Shown piece after piece: positions 3,213-34,501 of a DNA stretch of 42,353 nt. The stretch lies in the IMG/VR virus record IMGVR_UViG_2654587736_000008. One strand, written 5' to 3'. The stretch is from a virus (lineage: Duplodnaviria > Heunggongvirae > Uroviricota > Caudoviricetes). A model generated the notes under the pieces. That model made no database searches. It was not told the DNA's origin and was given only the letters and a program-made list of their open reading frames with translations. Made by a program: the position numbers and the translations under genes. Within the stretch, counting starts at the first letter, position 1. Each line of letters begins with the position of its first letter.

Positions 3213-3812
3213 TCAGAAACGGTATCCGATACCAACAATAAATGCATCCGTTCGCCAGTCGCCACTACCGGAACCTTCATAAGCAAGGTCAATGGTCACG
3301 GATTCGGTCGGGTTAAACTGCACGCCAGCCCCCCACGCCAGAGACGTGTTGCTGTGGCGACCGTCATCACTTCCGGTCAGCACATCGTGCGTTTTCCCCT
3401 TGTTGTCAGTTACGCGGAGATAATCCCCGGAGAAAGTCGACACACGGCTGTAAGCCACACCCGCCATCGAATACGCGCTGAACCATTCATTCACGCGTAC
3501 AGACGGCCCCGCCATCACGCTGAACCAGCGGTTACGCACGGAATCTTCATGCCAGCGGGTATCGCTGTAGTGCGTTTTTTGCTCATCCTCAGCATTGGCA
3601 TAACTGAAGGACGTAATCAGCCCCAGCGCGTCCGTAAACTCATAACGGTATTTCACGTTAATCCCGTTCAGATTATCGCTGCCGGGAGCGTTCGTACGGG
3701 CATGAAGATACCCCGCGCTCAGTGTGGACTGATGTTCAGACGCCCATGCAGGCGCACCGGATACGGACAGACAGATGGCTGCGGACAAAATGACTGCACA
3801 AACTTTACGCAT
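3213..3812 (-). CDS. lom: Lom outer-membrane protein (Ail/Lom/PagC family)
   Basis: 199 aa; signal peptide then SEHQSTLSAGYLHA...GINVKYRYEF...GIGYRF, near-identical in pattern to lambda Lom. Confidence 0.9.
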   Translation of the reverse strand: MRKVCAVILSAAICLSVSGAPAWASEHQSTLSAGYLHARTNAPGSDNLNGINVKYRYEFTDALGLITSFSYANAEDEQKTHYSDTRWHEDSVRNRWFSVMAGPSVRVNEWFSAYSMAGVAYSRVSTFSGDYLRVTDNKGKTHDVLTGSDDGRHSNTSLAWGAGVQFNPTESVTIDLAYEGSGSGDWRTDAFIVGIGYRF

Positions 3813-31765: not shown

Positions 31766-32584
31766 TCACCCCCTGAATCCTGCCGGGATCTGGCTGTAGT
31801 CCACGTTGTCGTAACTGGCTTTGAAGTACGGGTCCTCGCGTCTGGCTGCAGATACCGCAGGAACTTCCCAGGATTCTTCGAAATGACGATCCGGACCAAA
31901 GAACGTAACAGCCTGTTTCACAAATTGTGTGCCGCTGTTACCCATCGCAGATACCCAGCCCGCGTAGCGTTTCACACCTTCCAGCATGGTTTCGGGGTTT
32001 ACCCCCTCATTCAAACGGGCTTTCCAGGCTTTGAAGGCTGCAGATTTTGAATTGCCACCAGCACGTTTGGGATATACCAGCCATGCCTGCTCAAACTCCG
32101 GAGAGTATTCCGGTCGGTTTGAACGAACTCGCACGGACTCATCAACTGATGCACCAACAGCTATTGGTTCATTGACTGGTTCTTTGACTGGTTCAAAAGA
32201 GTGACTGGTTCTGGGTGAATCTCCTGCACTACCCCCTGGTGCAACTCCTGCACTACCTGGTGAATTTGCTGCACCAGATAGTGAATTATTTGCACTACCC
32301 CCTAGTGAATCTCCTGCACCATCCAGATGAAGGAGATAGATATTACTTGAGTTACCTTTTTCACCTTTCCGGGTGACTTTTTTTACCAGCCCGGACTCAC
32401 AAAGGGCCGCAATATGATTCATCACAGAACGTTTGCTAATCTCGCACTGGTCAGCAATATGCTGGTAGCTGGGCCAGCACTCCCCCTGATCGCTGGCATT
32501 ATCAGCCAGCTTGATCAGAACCAGTTTTCGCAATGGATTACCCACTCGAATTTTCATCGCTTTAACCATCAGCTCCATACTCAT
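31766..32584 (-). CDS. Replication initiator (O-like, N-terminal wHTH) containing the origin iterons
   Basis: 272 aa; N-terminal wHTH; Gly/Ser/Ala-rich central linker encoded by the DNA repeats; conserved C-terminal domain. Confidence 0.65.
   Translation of the reverse strand: MSMELMVKAMKIRVGNPLRKLVLIKLADNASDQGECWPSYQHIADQCEISKRSVMNHIAALCESGLVKKVTRKGEKGNSSNIYLLHLDGAGDSLGGSANNSLSGAANSPGSAGVAPGGSAGDSPRTSHSFEPVKEPVNEPIAVGASVDESVRVRSNRPEYSPEFEQAWLVYPKRAGGNSKSAAFKAWKARLNEGVNPETMLEGVKRYAGWVSAMGNSGTQFVKQAVTFFGPDRHFEESWEVPAVSAARREDPYFKASYDNVDYSQIPAGFRG
32165..32325. repeat. Iteron-like direct repeats (candidate ori) inside the initiator gene
   Basis: At least three copies of TGACTGGTTC followed by about five ~21-bp repeats with core TCCTGCAC(T/C)A. 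Confidence 0.6.
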
Positions 32585-32805
32585 GCAGCACCTCCGAGAT
32601 GCTTCATGTTTTTTCCGGAGCGAAAGGCTATAAGCGGCATACTGACGCGGTAACTACGGCCCAGCGGTTCACAAATCACCTTCTGACATTCACGGTCAAC
32701 CAGGCTAACACGTAGAACATGCCCTGCAGGTGTGGTGTACCACTGACCCGGACGAGGACAACGGAAAGTCTGATTGGTAAACCGTTTGAAAATATTCCGG
32801 ATCAT
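32581..32805 (-). CDS. Hypothetical protein (74 aa)
   Basis: ATGA-coupled to both neighbours. Confidence 0.45.
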   Translation of the reverse strand: MIRNIFKRFTNQTFRCPRPGQWYTTPAGHVLRVSLVDRECQKVICEPLGRSYRVSMPLIAFRSGKNMKHLGGAA

Positions 32806-33953
32806 TTGCGCCCCCTTACCTCTGAAGGGTTCAGCGACAAATTTATGAGGCAGGCCAGTGCCGAAGCATCATTAATATAGTCATACAAGCTAACAGCCAG
32901 CGGAGATTCGGCTTTTGCCAACATAGGATAAAGCTGCTGCAGCCAGACCTGATGAATTGATGAAATGTAGGAATAGAGAACGCTGGCGTTATGTGCAACG
33001 TCGCTCAGTACAGAGGGATTTGAAAGCTGTTTCTCCATCTGGTTAAAGGCATTGATGTATGCCTCTTTGAACTGGGCAGCACGTTTACCCGTGAAACCCA
33101 TAGCAAGAAACGCAAAGCCGTCGCGGGTTATTTGATAGCAAGGTAGTTTGCGGCCTGTGCAATCGGTGTAATCACTCGCCGAAAAATTGCGGGAAGTGAA
33201 TGATGCAGAGCATTCAAGCGTGCGGATCTTTTTCAGTACATCGTCATGACGTTTGGAGAAGAAGTTGGCAACAGCCAGGGATGAAGTAACAGCCTGACCA
33301 TCAACGATGGCAATTTCAGGTTGAGTGAGGGTTGGGATCGTAGCCATGATGGCAGCCTCTTTGGTGATTTTTAATAACTCACCACCAAGGCTTTCCACGA
33401 CCTTATTGGTGGTGAGACGTACAGGGGTGGAAATACCGGTCACCAAAGAACCCGGCCCAACCGAAGTTGGCCCTGCACGCCCCACCATAATTTGGGCGTA
33501 ATGCTGCTCATTACACAAAAAAACCGCAAGAGCGCGGTTGTGCGCTTTGGTGAATTCCGAGTTTCCACGCCCGGCACCCGCTTTATAAGGTGCCTGAACA
33601 GTGTAACGTCCCGGAATGGCAGAATCAATGTGCTGGTGGTCCTTCACACTCAACAAAATCACGCCTGAATTTCCACAAAGGACTAAAGCACTCATGCGGG
33701 TAGTCTTTGCGAAGATAGATAACGCGCTGTGTTTCTGGCTCCCAACGAATAACATGGACATAAAGCCCTCTTCCGTCACGAAACCAGCGGTTAAGTTCCT
33801 GCACAACTCGCCCCCCACAGTCAGGTAAAGTTCTCTGTGGTTACTTACAGCCAAGTGATTTGGTAATCTGCATTCATGCCGTAACAACAGGTGTTCAGCG
33901 ACACTGACCACCAGCTGTTGCGACAAACGGTTATTTGCCGTTAAACTGTTCAT
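32802..33953 (-). CDS. Rha-family phage regulatory protein with a ~200-aa N-terminal extension (alternative start ATG 33348)
   Basis: pRha domain (IAIVDGQAVTSSLAVANFFSKRHDDVLKKIRTL...YQITRDGFAFLAMGFTGKRAAQFKEAYINAFNQMEKQL) in the C-terminal half; the ORF is open to ATG 33953, which overlaps the upstream stop (ATGA). Confidence 0.6.
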   Translation of the reverse strand: MNSLTANNRLSQQLVVSVAEHLLLRHECRLPNHLAVSNHRELYLTVGGELCRNLTAGFVTEEGFMSMLFVGSQKHSALSIFAKTTRMSALVLCGNSGVILLSVKDHQHIDSAIPGRYTVQAPYKAGAGRGNSEFTKAHNRALAVFLCNEQHYAQIMVGRAGPTSVGPGSLVTGISTPVRLTTNKVVESLGGELLKITKEAAIMATIPTLTQPEIAIVDGQAVTSSLAVANFFSKRHDDVLKKIRTLECSASFTSRNFSASDYTDCTGRKLPCYQITRDGFAFLAMGFTGKRAAQFKEAYINAFNQMEKQLSNPSVLSDVAHNASVLYSYISSIHQVWLQQLYPMLAKAESPLAVSLYDYINDASALACLINLSLNPSEVRGRK

Positions 33954-34501
33954 GCGTTAGTTTCTCCACAGACACAAAACGCCACGACGCCCGGAGCTGC
34001 ACACTCGCGGGCGTCACTCTTTTCTGGAGCGCAGAAGATTTTGTAGACCAGTGCTGCATGCTCCTGGAGCTTCGAAATTGACAGATACAACTCATCATTA
34101 ATTGCTGTCTGCTCGTGTGGCTCCACGACCCCATCTTCGATTGCCGAACGAATCTGCTTTGAGTAATTCCCGATCTGTTCGATGACTTCCAGCAGGCGCT
34201 GGTTTATATCGGCGTTCTCTACTTCCTCAATTTCAGGAAGCGATACGAACACCCCACCAGCAGACTGTGCGACAGCATCCGCAATGTAGTGAGTGCCAGC
34301 CGCGCGCTGTAAAACCATTGCCCATCCCAGCGGGAAAATCTGATCGCCATCTGCACGAAGGCGGTTGAATAAAGCGTTCTCTGTTACATCCAGCCAGTCA
34401 GCAGCTTCAGCGTAACCCCCAGGCAATGCCGCGATAGTTTTTCTGACAGCTTTCACGTACCACTCAGGTTGTTTTTCCACTTTCCAATGATGCTTACCCA
34501 C
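33950..34501 (-). CDS. YdaT-like (CII-position) regulatory protein
   Basis: 183 aa; GTG start with SD AGGAGGT; sits immediately downstream of cro as in Rac ydaS-ydaT. Confidence 0.45.
   Translation of the reverse strand: MGKHHWKVEKQPEWYVKAVRKTIAALPGGYAEAADWLDVTENALFNRLRADGDQIFPLGWAMVLQRAAGTHYIADAVAQSAGGVFVSLPEIEEVENADINQRLLEVIEQIGNYSKQIRSAIEDGVVEPHEQTAINDELYLSISKLQEHAALVYKIFCAPEKSDARECAAPGVVAFCVCGETNA

What the first reader, a model, noticed from the sequence alone, without database searches (positions are those of the whole stretch)
32802..33953. Rha domain carried on a 383-aa ORF with an unexplained 200-aa N-terminal extension
Rha-family proteins usually begin with the pRha domain, but here the ORF stays open for about 600 nt upstream and begins at an ATG that overlaps the preceding stop (ATGA). 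An internal ATG at 33348 with SD GAGG could also initiate a conventional Rha protein, so one locus may yield two products.
Basis: seen in the sequence. Interest (0 to 1): 0.4.

Follow-up and report, generated by a model that had tools for sequence, protein, structure and literature searches.

The report
Antirepressor gene fused to RNA switch
The "extra 200 amino acids" in front of this phage Rha regulator are not a protein domain: they are a stop-free reading frame laid over a small-RNA immunity switch that controls the Rha gene, a design known from satellite phage P4, so the locus is an ordinary but instructive member of that class.

Summary
The 383-aa ORF is real (minus strand, 33953..32802). 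Its ATG overlaps the stop of the cII-like gene ymfL (ATGA). The Rha domain starts only at residue 223. The internal start is ATG 33347, not 33348.

The upstream 606 nt are not an unknown protein domain. They hold a separate 59-aa DUF4222 gene in another frame, a predicted promoter, an IsrK/seqA-like small RNA with a terminator, and a C4/CI-type antisense RNA. The two C4 loops pair with sites next to and over the Shine-Dalgarno of ATG 33347.

Across 20-60 related modules the C4 loops, the targets at the ribosome site and the decoy sites in IsrK change together. Pfam "Phage_ASH" (residues 117-213) is the translation of these RNA genes.

The frame is nevertheless almost never interrupted in relatives. 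Substitutions show no codon periodicity, and the ORF start usually overlaps the stop of whatever gene lies upstream.

This matches the nested eta/kil genes of P4. There a long ORF is translated through the immunity RNA region, and a short product is nested in frame behind the RNA-controlled ribosome site.

Verdict: a new member of a known kind. Two products are plausible but untested.

The parts
32802..33953 (-). 383-aa stop-free ORF (eta-like 'transit' frame) ending in the Rha effector
   Evidence: ORF; 0/2000 shuffles stay open; the other frames have 13 and 10 stops; the frame is kept open in relatives.
33950..34501 (-). ymfL / CII-like gene; its TGA (33952-33950) overlaps the ATG of the long ORF (ATGA, 33953-33950)
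   Evidence: Phage_CP76, E 1.2e-14; phrog_101 CII-like activator.
33625..33804 (-). 59-aa DUF4222 gene, GTG start, in a different frame, wholly inside the long ORF
   Evidence: PF13973, E 9.5e-14; phrog_1343; annotated by PGAP; substitutions versus Citrobacter, Salmonella and e14 fall on DUF4222 third positions (7/3/11, 3/3/14, 19/16/38); 64% identity to the e14 copy.
33600..33628 (-). Predicted sigma-70 promoter inside the ORF: -35 TTGATT (33628-33623), 17-nt spacer, -10 TACACT (33605-33600); predicted start near 33593
   Evidence: Read. It scores 8/12, below the 9/12 cut-off of the scan. A -10 box (TACACT/TATAGT) sits at the same distance from isrK in the relatives, in P4 and in Gifsy-1, where PMC4825925 demonstrated an isrK promoter by fusions. 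Inferred, not shown.
33517..33593 (-). IsrK / seqA-like small RNA carrying decoy sites a1 (33568-33562, hairpin loop) and b1 (33553-33545), plus an intrinsic terminator (stem 33539-33522, then a U-run)
   Evidence: RF01394, 62.5 bits vs gathering 50; weak c4-a1b1 overlap; terminator; cognate pairing with the C4 loops.
33405..33492 (-). C4 / CI-type antisense RNA; b' loop 33450-33440, a' 33433-33427; an orf45-like AUG at 33488-33486 lies in its 5' strand, in frame with Rha
   Evidence: RF01695, 83.6 bits vs gathering 45. (-44.6 kcal/mol, z -4.1); closing stem 17 bp, 100% canonical in 61 distinct sequences, 12 pairs with compensatory changes.
33340..33404 (-). Target and translation-initiation region: a2 33398-33392, GGUGGUGAG 33386-33378 (alternative partner of the C4 3' strand), b2 33367-33357 overlapping SD GAGG 33359-33356, ATG 33347
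   Evidence: b'-b2 -15.0 kcal/mol, 11 bp; b'-b2 91% canonical, 8/11 pairs with double changes; alternative hairpin 96%, 6/9; a local hairpin sequesters the SD and AUG (-27.4 kcal/mol, z -5.3).
32802..33347 (-). Rha-family regulator / probable antirepressor, 181 aa, nested in frame
   Evidence: Phage_pRha; phrog_821, phrog_518 Rha-like, phrog_373 and phrog_63 anti-repressor; strong codon periodicity (0.50/0.43/1.14).
32581..32805 (-). 74-aa ORF whose start overlaps the Rha stop and whose stop overlaps the replication-gene start (next gene of the operon)
   Evidence: phrog_1153, unknown function.

Best explanation
The locus is an RNA-based anti-immunity cassette of the P1 c4 / P4 cI type. It sits in the early right operon of a lambdoid prophage (mEp460-like), between the cII-like gene ymfL and the replication genes. 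Reading the minus strand, the order is: (1) a promoter inside the ORF (about 33628-33600); (2) an IsrK/seqA-like RNA (33593-33517) with sites a1 and b1 and an intrinsic terminator; (3) a C4/CI antisense RNA (33492-33405) whose segments a' and b' are complementary to a1/b1 and to a2/b2; (4) a2 and b2, with b2 covering the Shine-Dalgarno of ATG 33347; (5) the Rha-family effector, probably an antirepressor. In a lysogen, C4 made from the internal promoter would pair with a2/b2 and keep Rha untranslated. IsrK carries a competing copy of the targets. The 383-aa ORF is the counterpart of P4 eta. It is a reading frame coupled to the stop of the upstream gene (ATGA). It is kept free of stops but not conserved as a peptide, and it runs across the DUF4222 gene, the promoter, the terminator and the RNA genes, in frame into Rha. 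When the early operon is transcribed from upstream, ribosomes passing from ymfL into this frame would keep the terminator and the C4-target structures from forming. Transcription would then reach rha and the replication genes. This route yields a long Rha fusion. The 181-aa Rha from ATG 33347 is the RNA-controlled form, as Kil is in P4. Shown here: the RNA genes, the three-way covariation, the absence of amino-acid constraint, the stop avoidance and the start-stop overlaps. Inferred: promoter activity, C4 processing, actual translation of the long frame, its anti-termination role, and the antirepressor function of Rha.
For: RNA genes: C4 scores 83.6 bits and isrK 62.5 bits, both above gathering. 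The same pair precedes Rha homologues in nearly all gammaproteobacterial loci scanned, Gifsy-1 and P4. Structure: 61 distinct sequences keep the C4 stems 100% canonical with 12/17 and 4/5 compensatory pairs, and b'-b2 is 91% canonical with 8/11 double changes. Specificity: cognate versus non-cognate duplex energies are b'-b2 -14.9 vs -6.5, a'-a2 -9.6 vs -6.9, b'-isrK -13.1 vs -8.4 and a'-isrK -11.3 vs -8.3 kcal/mol. None of 10000 permutations did as well. Not a protein domain: column entropy by codon position is 0.72/0.77/0.77 upstream against 0.50/0.43/1.14 in Rha. In the DUF4222 overlap, changes fall on second positions of the long frame. In the first 149 nt there is no periodicity. Phage_ASH hits the P4 'cI' ORF exactly over the CI RNA, whereas the real P4 epsilon protein belongs to another family. 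Frame kept open: 2 stops in frame 0 versus 67 and 43 in the other frames, over 17 modules. Among distinct sequences, 2/64, 5/82 and 5/69 have a frame-0 stop in the C4, isrK and promoter segments, against 61/47, 67/37 and 62/48 in the other frames. 104 of 105 distinct IMG/VR upstream sequences are open for at least 100 codons. The frame stays open for 300-400 codons even across reverse-strand toxin-antitoxin-like inserts. Coupling: the first ATG overlaps the stop of the upstream gene in 10 of 17 loci and in at least 12 different junction contexts. Precedent: the P4 eta/kil description in PMC10111431, and the P4 sequence shares the SD-ATG string and the ATGATG overlap with ORF88. Gifsy-1: translation across the C4 region (orf45) is needed for effector translation (PMC4825925; sequence).
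Against: No expression data exist for this locus. The promoter is a weak consensus match (8/12) and the scan missed it. Modules share ancestry, so part of the stop-free state is inherited and not independently selected. Indel lengths between the C4 AUG and the effector ATG are multiples of three in only about 3 of 5 inferred events. Gifsy-1 lacks the open frame (TGA TAA 33 nt upstream), as do one IMG/VR module, L012, L015 and the Marinomonas loci. The design is therefore not universal. The DUF4222 gene lies inside the long ORF in another frame, which is awkward for efficient translation of both. The AlphaFold model was poor throughout (mean pLDDT 33) and says little. The primary P4 paper (Forti 1999) could not be read, so its content is cited second-hand.
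Confidence: 0.7

Rival explanations
1. Pure annotation artefact. Nothing upstream of 33347 is translated in this frame. Only the 181-aa Rha, DUF4222 and the RNAs are made, and the open frame is inherited by chance with the conserved RNA sequence.
For: No codon periodicity upstream. A promoter, a terminator and another gene lie inside the ORF. PGAP start calls are inconsistent. Some relatives have stops.
Against: Variable positions generate 103 and 86 stops in the other two frames but only 6, in two sequences, in this frame. The frame also stays open through the isrK and promoter segments and through unrelated inserted cassettes. The start overlaps the upstream stop in many unrelated contexts. 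The homologous P4 ORF is reported to be translated.
Confidence: 0.15
2. A genuine two-domain protein: an 'Ash' domain (plus a YmfM-like N-terminus) fused to Rha, with a protein-level function for residues 1-202. This is how Pfam, PHROGs and some papers read it.
For: Phage_ASH hit above its gathering score. phrog_821 and phrog_995 include the extension. Residues 1-89 are 33% identical to e14 YmfM, annotated as a cell-division inhibitor. PMC8951638 treats Rha/Ash as domains.
Against: There is no amino-acid constraint. The 'domain' covaries as RNA. In P4 the family is anchored on the cI ORF that holds the CI RNA. The similarity to YmfM is weaker than that of the overlapping DUF4222 frame (33% vs 64%). 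Register shifts occur between relatives within the 'domain'.
Confidence: 0.05
3. Only a short upstream ORF is translated. Ribosomes start at AUG 33488 inside the 5' strand of C4 (the counterpart of Gifsy-1 orf45) and, because it is in frame here, make a 228-aa Rha. The frame further upstream is irrelevant.
For: Gifsy-1 orf45 starts at the homologous AUG and its translation is required for effector translation. The AUG is in frame with the effector in 14 of 17 modules. The rha initiation region is predicted to be locked in a hairpin, so an upstream ribosome would help.
Against: Stop avoidance continues upstream of C4 through isrK and the promoter. The ORF start coincides with the stop of the upstream gene. 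No SD precedes 33488. The AUG is also fixed by base pairing in the C4 stem.
Confidence: 0.1

Closest known systems
Satellite phage P4 immunity region (PLE, seqA, cI RNA, seqC, nested genes eta and kil)
   Same: Homologous isrK/seqA-like and C4/CI RNAs in the same order. Same SD-ATG string at the nested short gene. A long ORF overlaps the stop of the upstream gene and runs through the RNA genes, in frame with the short product. The described logic is that a promoter internal to the ORF makes the immunity RNA, and translation of the long ORF from upstream transcripts overrides termination (PMC10111431).
   Different: The effector is a 181-aa Rha-family regulator, not the 65-aa Kil. The host element is a lambdoid prophage early operon after a cII-like gene, not a satellite. 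The long frame additionally overlaps a DUF4222 gene. P4 has about 100 extra nt between seqA and cI. Whether repression here acts by termination (P4) or by translation block (P1) is unknown.
Phage P1/P7 immI operon (c4 antisense RNA, icd, ant)
   Same: C4 family RNA (Rfam RF01695). Its two recognition segments a' and b' are matched by one target pair upstream (a1b1) and one at the ribosome-binding site downstream (a2b2). Many specificities resemble the P1/P7 heteroimmunity. The effector is of antirepressor type. The P1 mechanism is stated from general knowledge (Citron and Schuster 1990; Riedel et al. 1993), not read here.
   Different: No separate icd gene: the target is the effector's own SD. 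The a1b1 element is a terminated small RNA (IsrK). Homology of Rha to P1 Ant was not tested.
Salmonella Gifsy-1 isrK-orf45-anrP locus (Hershko-Shalev et al. 2016, PMC4825925)
   Same: isrK followed by a C4-type RNA and then an effector with its SD under b2. A short IsrK and a read-through mRNA come from one promoter. Translation across the C4 region is coupled to effector translation.
   Different: In Gifsy-1 the upstream ORF is 45 codons and ends in AUGA, out of frame with anrP, and the effector frame is closed 33 nt upstream. AnrP is not homologous to this Rha. The module lies after the Q gene, not in the early operon. That paper does not describe the C4 element.
E. coli K-12 e14 prophage ymfL-ymfM
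   Same: The same ATGA junction after ymfL, the same MNSLT start, the same phase relative to an overlapping DUF4222 ORF.
   Different: e14 has no isrK, C4 or Rha. Its ORF stops after 112 codons, just before the replication-gene remnant.

Membership tests
Rfam C4 antisense RNA (RF01695) | Covariance-model score above the curated gathering score | tested here: met
   83.6 bits vs 45, full-length match at 33492..33405.
Rfam C4 antisense RNA (RF01695) | Conserved secondary structure supported by compensatory changes | tested here: met
   Closing stem and hairpin 1 are 100% canonical in 61 distinct sequences, with 12/17 and 4/5 pairs showing double changes; slid controls give 20-53%.
P1/P7 immI-type control | Antisense loops complementary to a target overlapping the ribosome-binding site of the downstream gene, and to a second target pair upstream | tested here: met
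   b' pairs with b2 over 11 bp covering the GAG of the SD; a' with a2 over 7 bp; a1 and b1 lie in isrK. Cognate pairs beat non-cognate pairs, and 0/10000 permutations did as well.
P1/P7 immI-type control | A separate icd gene between c4 and ant, translationally coupled to ant | tested here: not met
   Only 57 nt separate C4 from ATG 33347, and the target covers the effector's own SD.
P1/P7 immI-type control | C4 processed from the operon transcript (RNase P) and acting in trans | not testable with these tools
   Needs RNA mapping.
P4 eta/kil nested-gene immunity region | Long ORF translationally coupled to the upstream gene and spanning the immunity RNA genes | tested here: met
   ATGA overlap with ymfL; 202 stop-free codons across isrK and C4. 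The P4 arrangement was verified in sequence.
P4 eta/kil nested-gene immunity region | Short product nested in the same frame behind the RNA-controlled SD | tested here: met
   ATG 33347 is in frame; the SD-ATG string is shared with P4 kil.
P4 eta/kil nested-gene immunity region | Constitutive promoter internal to the long ORF | tested here: inconclusive
   TTGATT-17-TACACT at 33628-33600 matches 8/12 and was missed by the scan. The -10 box is conserved in position across relatives, P4 and Gifsy-1.
P4 eta/kil nested-gene immunity region | Translation of the long ORF suppresses immunity-dependent termination | not testable with these tools
   Indirect support only: stop avoidance without amino-acid constraint.
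Gifsy-1 isrK-orf45-anrP | isrK RNA above the gathering score, with a terminator | tested here: met
   62.5 bits vs 50; terminator at 33539-33517.
Gifsy-1 isrK-orf45-anrP | Separate short upstream ORF ending at the effector start (AUGA), and an AnrP-type effector | tested here: not met
   AUG 33488 is in frame with Rha with no stop. Rha versus AnrP shows no similarity.
Pfam Phage_pRha (PF09669) | HMM score above the gathering score | tested here: met
   108.3 bits vs 29.9, residues 223-308.
Pfam Phage_ASH (PF10554), taken as a protein domain | HMM score above the gathering score | tested here: met
   56.2 bits vs 26, residues 117-213.
Pfam Phage_ASH (PF10554), taken as a protein domain | Evolution under amino-acid constraint, as expected of a protein domain | tested here: not met
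   Entropy by codon position is 0.72/0.77/0.77. The match equals isrK plus C4 plus the ribosome site. In P4 it covers the CI RNA.
YmfM (e14 cell-division inhibitor) | Sequence similarity reflecting protein-level homology | tested here: inconclusive
   33% identity over 99 aa, E 5e-9. The overlapping DUF4222 frame is 64% identical, and substitutions follow the DUF4222 frame.

The most novel reading that the evidence does not exclude
Stop-free but sequence-unconstrained 'transit' reading frames laid over C4/CI-type immunity RNA genes may be a general, selected device. They are coupled to whatever gene lies upstream and are kept open even across reverse-strand inserts. Phage early operons and satellites would use them to drive ribosomes through their own immunity terminator and antisense targets. 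On this reading the Pfam Ash 'domain' is not a protein domain, and many 'Rha/Ash', 'Bro-network' and 'peptidase' annotations are mis-read. YmfM/SfiC of E. coli e14 would be a remnant of such a frame.
Probability: 0.5. Interest if true: 0.6.

Novelty: new member of a known kind. Interest (0 to 1): 0.45.

Why it matters
It turns an "unexplained domain" into a testable regulatory design. The design combines an antisense-RNA lock on an antirepressor with a translated bypass, and it sits in the early operon of a common E. coli prophage type found in roughly half of complete E. coli genomes.

It also has annotation consequences. Pfam Phage_ASH, several PHROG families and many RefSeq "Rha family/ash family/peptidase" proteins of 280-600 aa are built on translated RNA genes. 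Start calls differ on identical DNA. Published surveys treat Ash as a protein domain of unknown function or use it as a marker for P4 epsilon.

The many a/b specificities, and their reshuffling, give a catalogue of RNA-based immunity types among lambdoid prophages, Stx phages and satellites.

Tried and rejected
- My first assumption was that the extension was simply non-coding and the ORF a chance run-on. I dropped this after the stop counts per frame and the start-stop overlaps.
- I considered that only the orf45-like upstream ORF explains the open frame. This is not sufficient, because stop avoidance continues upstream of C4.
- I considered that indels in multiples of three prove coding. There are too few independent events, so I do not use this as evidence for the C4 segment.
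- AlphaFold2 on the 383-aa ORF with an 11-sequence alignment gave mean pLDDT 33: 20-28 for residues 1-210 and 45-57 in the Rha part. The model is too poor to use, and no fold search was run.
- Comparison of Rha with Gifsy-1 AnrP showed no homology, so the effector is not an AnrP orthologue.
- Rfam on e14 found no RNA genes, so e14 is not a full homologue.
- Forti et al. 1999 (PMC94026) is not held. The P4 mechanism is taken from the summary in PMC10111431 and from the P4 sequence.
- The a'-a2 column count in the MAFFT alignment was out of register: 47% canonical, 84% when slid by one. The duplex-energy test is used for a'-a2 instead.
- The first regex extraction of hairpin 2 failed for four modules and was redone.
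Full report
**1. The observation**

The window carries a 383-aa ORF on the minus strand, 33953..32802. Its ATG overlaps the TGA of the preceding 183-aa ORF (34501..33950), giving ATGA. That preceding ORF is a CII-like protein, ymfL (Pfam Phage_CP76; phrog_101).

Pfam places Phage_pRha at residues 223-308 (E 3e-31) and Phage_ASH at residues 117-213 (E 5e-15). GAGG lies 8 nt upstream of it.

The open stretch is not a chance event. None of 2000 shuffles of the upstream 609 nt lacks a stop in that frame, and the other two frames carry 13 and 10 stops.

The DNA is 99.8% identical to phage mEp460 and occurs in many E. coli genomes. NCBI's annotation pipeline (PGAP) aa in one genome. On 100%-identical DNA in another genome it aa plus a separate DUF4222 gene.

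**2. What lies inside the "extension"**

Rfam finds two RNA genes on the same strand, both above their gathering scores: C4 antisense RNA at 33492..33405 (83.6 bits) and isrK at 33593..33517 (62.5 bits). There is also a weak overlapping match to the "a1,b1 targets of C4" model.

The Phage_ASH match, converted to DNA (33605..33315), is exactly isrK plus C4 plus the ribosome-binding site of ATG 33347.

Further upstream, a 59-aa ORF in another frame (33804..33625) is a DUF4222 protein (E 9.5e-14; phrog_1343).

isrK ends in an intrinsic terminator. By eye, a promoter-like TTGATT-17-TACACT sits at 33628-33600. It was missed by the scan (8 of 12 matches). However, a -10 box lies at the same distance from isrK in the relatives, in P4 and in Gifsy-1. 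In Gifsy-1 an isrK promoter was demonstrated experimentally (PMC4825925).

**3. The RNA logic**

The loop of C4 hairpin 2 (b', 33450-33440) is complementary over 11 bp to b2 (33367-33357), which covers the GAG of the SD. The single-stranded a' (33433-33427) pairs with a2 (33398-33392). Copies of both targets (a1 and b1) lie in isrK.

I collected relatives from four sources:
- by Rha similarity in GTDB genomes;
- from E. coli and Salmonella genomes;
- from Gifsy-1 and P4;
- by the exact SD-ATG 18-mer in IMG/VR.

In these modules the three copies of a and of b change together. Cognate versus non-cognate duplex energies are:

| Pairing | Cognate (kcal/mol) | Non-cognate (kcal/mol) |
|---|---|---|
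| b'-b2 | -14.9 | -6.5 |
| a'-a2 | -9.6 | -6.9 |
| b'-isrK | -13.1 | -8.4 |
| a'-isrK | -11.3 | -8.3 |

None of 10000 permutations reached the observed means.

In 61 distinct sequences the C4 closing stem and hairpin 1 are 100% canonical, with 12/17 and 4/5 compensatory pairs. b'-b2 is 91% canonical with 8/11 double changes. A hairpin between the C4 3' strand and a downstream GGUGGUGAG also covaries (96%, 6/9).

C4 folds at -44.6 kcal/mol (z -4.1). The 65 nt after it fold into a hairpin that buries the SD and the AUG (z -5.3).

This is the P1/P7 c4 and P4 cI type of control, here with many specificities. Tandem modules in one genome carry different specificities.

**4. Is the extension a protein?**

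At the amino-acid level it is not.
- Column entropy by codon position is flat upstream (0.72/0.77/0.77). It is strongly periodic in Rha (0.50/0.43/1.14).
- Against Citrobacter, Salmonella and e14, substitutions in the DUF4222 overlap fall on DUF4222 third positions (7/3/11, 3/3/14, 19/16/38). These are second positions of the long frame.
- The first 149 nt show no periodicity.
- In P4, Phage_ASH hits the old "cI gene product" ORF exactly over the CI RNA. The true derepression protein epsilon belongs to another family.

So the Ash "domain" is translated RNA-gene sequence.

**5. The frame is nevertheless kept open**

- Over 17 modules, the 243 nt before the effector ATG contain 2 stops in the effector frame, against 67 and 43 in the other frames.
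- Among distinct sequences, 2/64, 5/82 and 5/69 have a frame-0 stop in the C4, isrK and promoter segments. The other frames have 61/47, 67/37 and 62/48.
- Stops at variable positions number 103 and 86 in the other frames, and 6 (in two sequences) in this one.
- 104 of 105 distinct IMG/VR upstream sequences are open for at least 100 codons.
- In Edwardsiella, Izhakiella and other loci the frame stays open for 300-400 codons across reverse-strand toxin-antitoxin-like inserts.
- The first ATG of the frame overlaps the stop of the upstream gene (ATGA) in 10 of 17 loci and in at least 12 different junction contexts. The upstream genes include ymfL, DUF4222, a helicase-like gene and another Rha.

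Exceptions exist: Gifsy-1, one IMG/VR module, L012, L015 and the Marinomonas loci.

**6. The precedent**

P4 has the same arrangement in homologous sequence. An ORF starts at the ATGATG overlapping the stop of ORF88. It runs through seqA/isrK and cI/C4, in frame into the 65-aa Kil. Kil's start is CAGGAGGCTGCCATCATGGCTACA, against AAAGAGGCTGCCATCATGGCTACG in the window.

PMC10111431 summarises Forti et al. 1999 as follows:
- Kil is a truncated Eta;
- full-length Eta is translated only from an upstream promoter and is coupled to the upstream gene;
- its translation prevents termination.

In Gifsy-1, orf45 is the translation of the C4 region, starting at the homologous AUG. Its translation is required for antirepressor translation.

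**7. Best explanation and its limits**

The 383-aa ORF is an eta-like transit frame over an RNA immunity cassette. Rha is the nested, RNA-controlled product. In the early operon the frame would let ribosomes coming from ymfL carry transcription through the isrK terminator and the C4-target structures, into rha and the replication genes.

Promoter activity, C4 processing, translation of the long frame and the antirepressor role of Rha are all inferred. For Rha the only support is matches to anti-repressor PHROG families. The AlphaFold model was uninformative.

I put about 0.95 on the RNA cassette and on "not a protein domain". I put about 0.6 on the translated-bypass role.

**8. Novelty**

The RNA families, the P4 nested genes and the presence of CI/seqA inside "Bro-network" genes of satellites are all published. 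New here:
- the assignment of this lambdoid Rha ORF to that design;
- the evidence that the frame is open but unconstrained across many modules and contexts;
- the reading of Phage_ASH as translated RNA.

This is a new member of a known kind, of moderate interest.

Noticed in passing
L077 (E. coli K-12 e14) 3323-3681; window 33953-33625: ymfM of e14, annotated 'cell division inhibitor YmfM' and equated with SfiC, is the 5' remnant of the same long frame (ATGA after ymfL, MNSLT start). It overlaps a 59-aa DUF4222 ORF (TTG 3502-3681) that is much better conserved (64% vs 33% identity to the window). The ymfM paper cloned the ORF into pBAD24 and, in the text I searched, reports no frame controls. 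Which product causes filamentation may need re-examination.
   Followed up: partly
window 33953-33916 (minus strand): The first 38 nt or so of the long ORF (ATGAACAGTTTAACGGCAAATAACCGTTTGTCGCAACA) are nearly invariant between the window, Citrobacter, Salmonella and partly e14, while the following sequence diverges freely. They contain an inverted repeat AACGG-N7-CCGTT. Function unknown.
   Followed up: no
L079 2501-4282 (Salmonella); L082 1909-3476 (STEC); L014: Some genomes carry two tandem isrK-C4-effector modules with different a/b specificities. In Salmonella they are read as a single 593-aa ORF ('hypothetical protein') that runs through both RNA cassettes and a truncated first Rha.
   Followed up: partly
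L006, L008, L009 (about -880 to -290 relative to the effector ATG); L007, L011: Reverse-strand gene pairs are inserted between DUF4222 and the isrK promoter, yet the forward frame stays open across them for 300-400 codons. By eye one type looks BrnT/BrnA-like toxin-antitoxin, the other an HTH protein plus a small protein.
   Followed up: partly
L176 versus window (C4 to ATG region); list: The a and b specificity elements reassort independently. L176 has the window's b'/b2 but a different a'/a2 (UUUCUCAC / GUGAGAAG). Many combinations occur among IMG/VR modules.
   Followed up: no
L013 2367-2453 (Providencia); L019 2358-2442 (Marinomonas): Upstream of Rha homologues, at the position where C4 sits elsewhere, Rfam reports sRNA-Xcc1 (RF02221, 72 and 67 bits). 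sRNA-Xcc1 may be an analogue or relative of C4.
   Followed up: no
L081 2404-2637 and IMG/VR loci: The same 5' cassette (99% identical up to the C4 region) is joined to other effectors just after the conserved MAT(I/V)P codons. Examples are a 77-aa protein (MATVPALSRLNDDD..., phrog_3960/4908), a MATVPTSPYLKIE... type and P4 Kil-like peptides. RefSeq names the resulting ORF 'ash family protein'.
   Followed up: partly
window 33404-33340 (minus strand): The rha translation-initiation region is predicted to fold on its own into a hairpin that pairs an anti-SD (AGCCU) with the SD and buries the AUG (-27.4 kcal/mol, z -5.3). CCUCU-type anti-SD strings appear at the same place in several relatives (by eye).
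   Followed up: partly
literature: bioRxiv 10.1101/2021.03.30.437493; PMC8951638: PF10554 is used as the marker for P4 epsilon in a survey of P4-like satellites, and is described as a domain of unknown function in Stx-phage Rha proteins. In P4 it actually matches the cI-RNA ORF, while epsilon is PF25738.
   Followed up: yes
window 32581-32805 (minus strand): A 74-aa ORF (phrog_1153, no Pfam hit) is linked by start/stop overlaps to both Rha and the replication gene. Its core (GQWYTTPAGHVLRVSLVDRE...) looks DUF4222-like by eye. A 78-aa homologue follows the alternative effector in L081.
   Followed up: no
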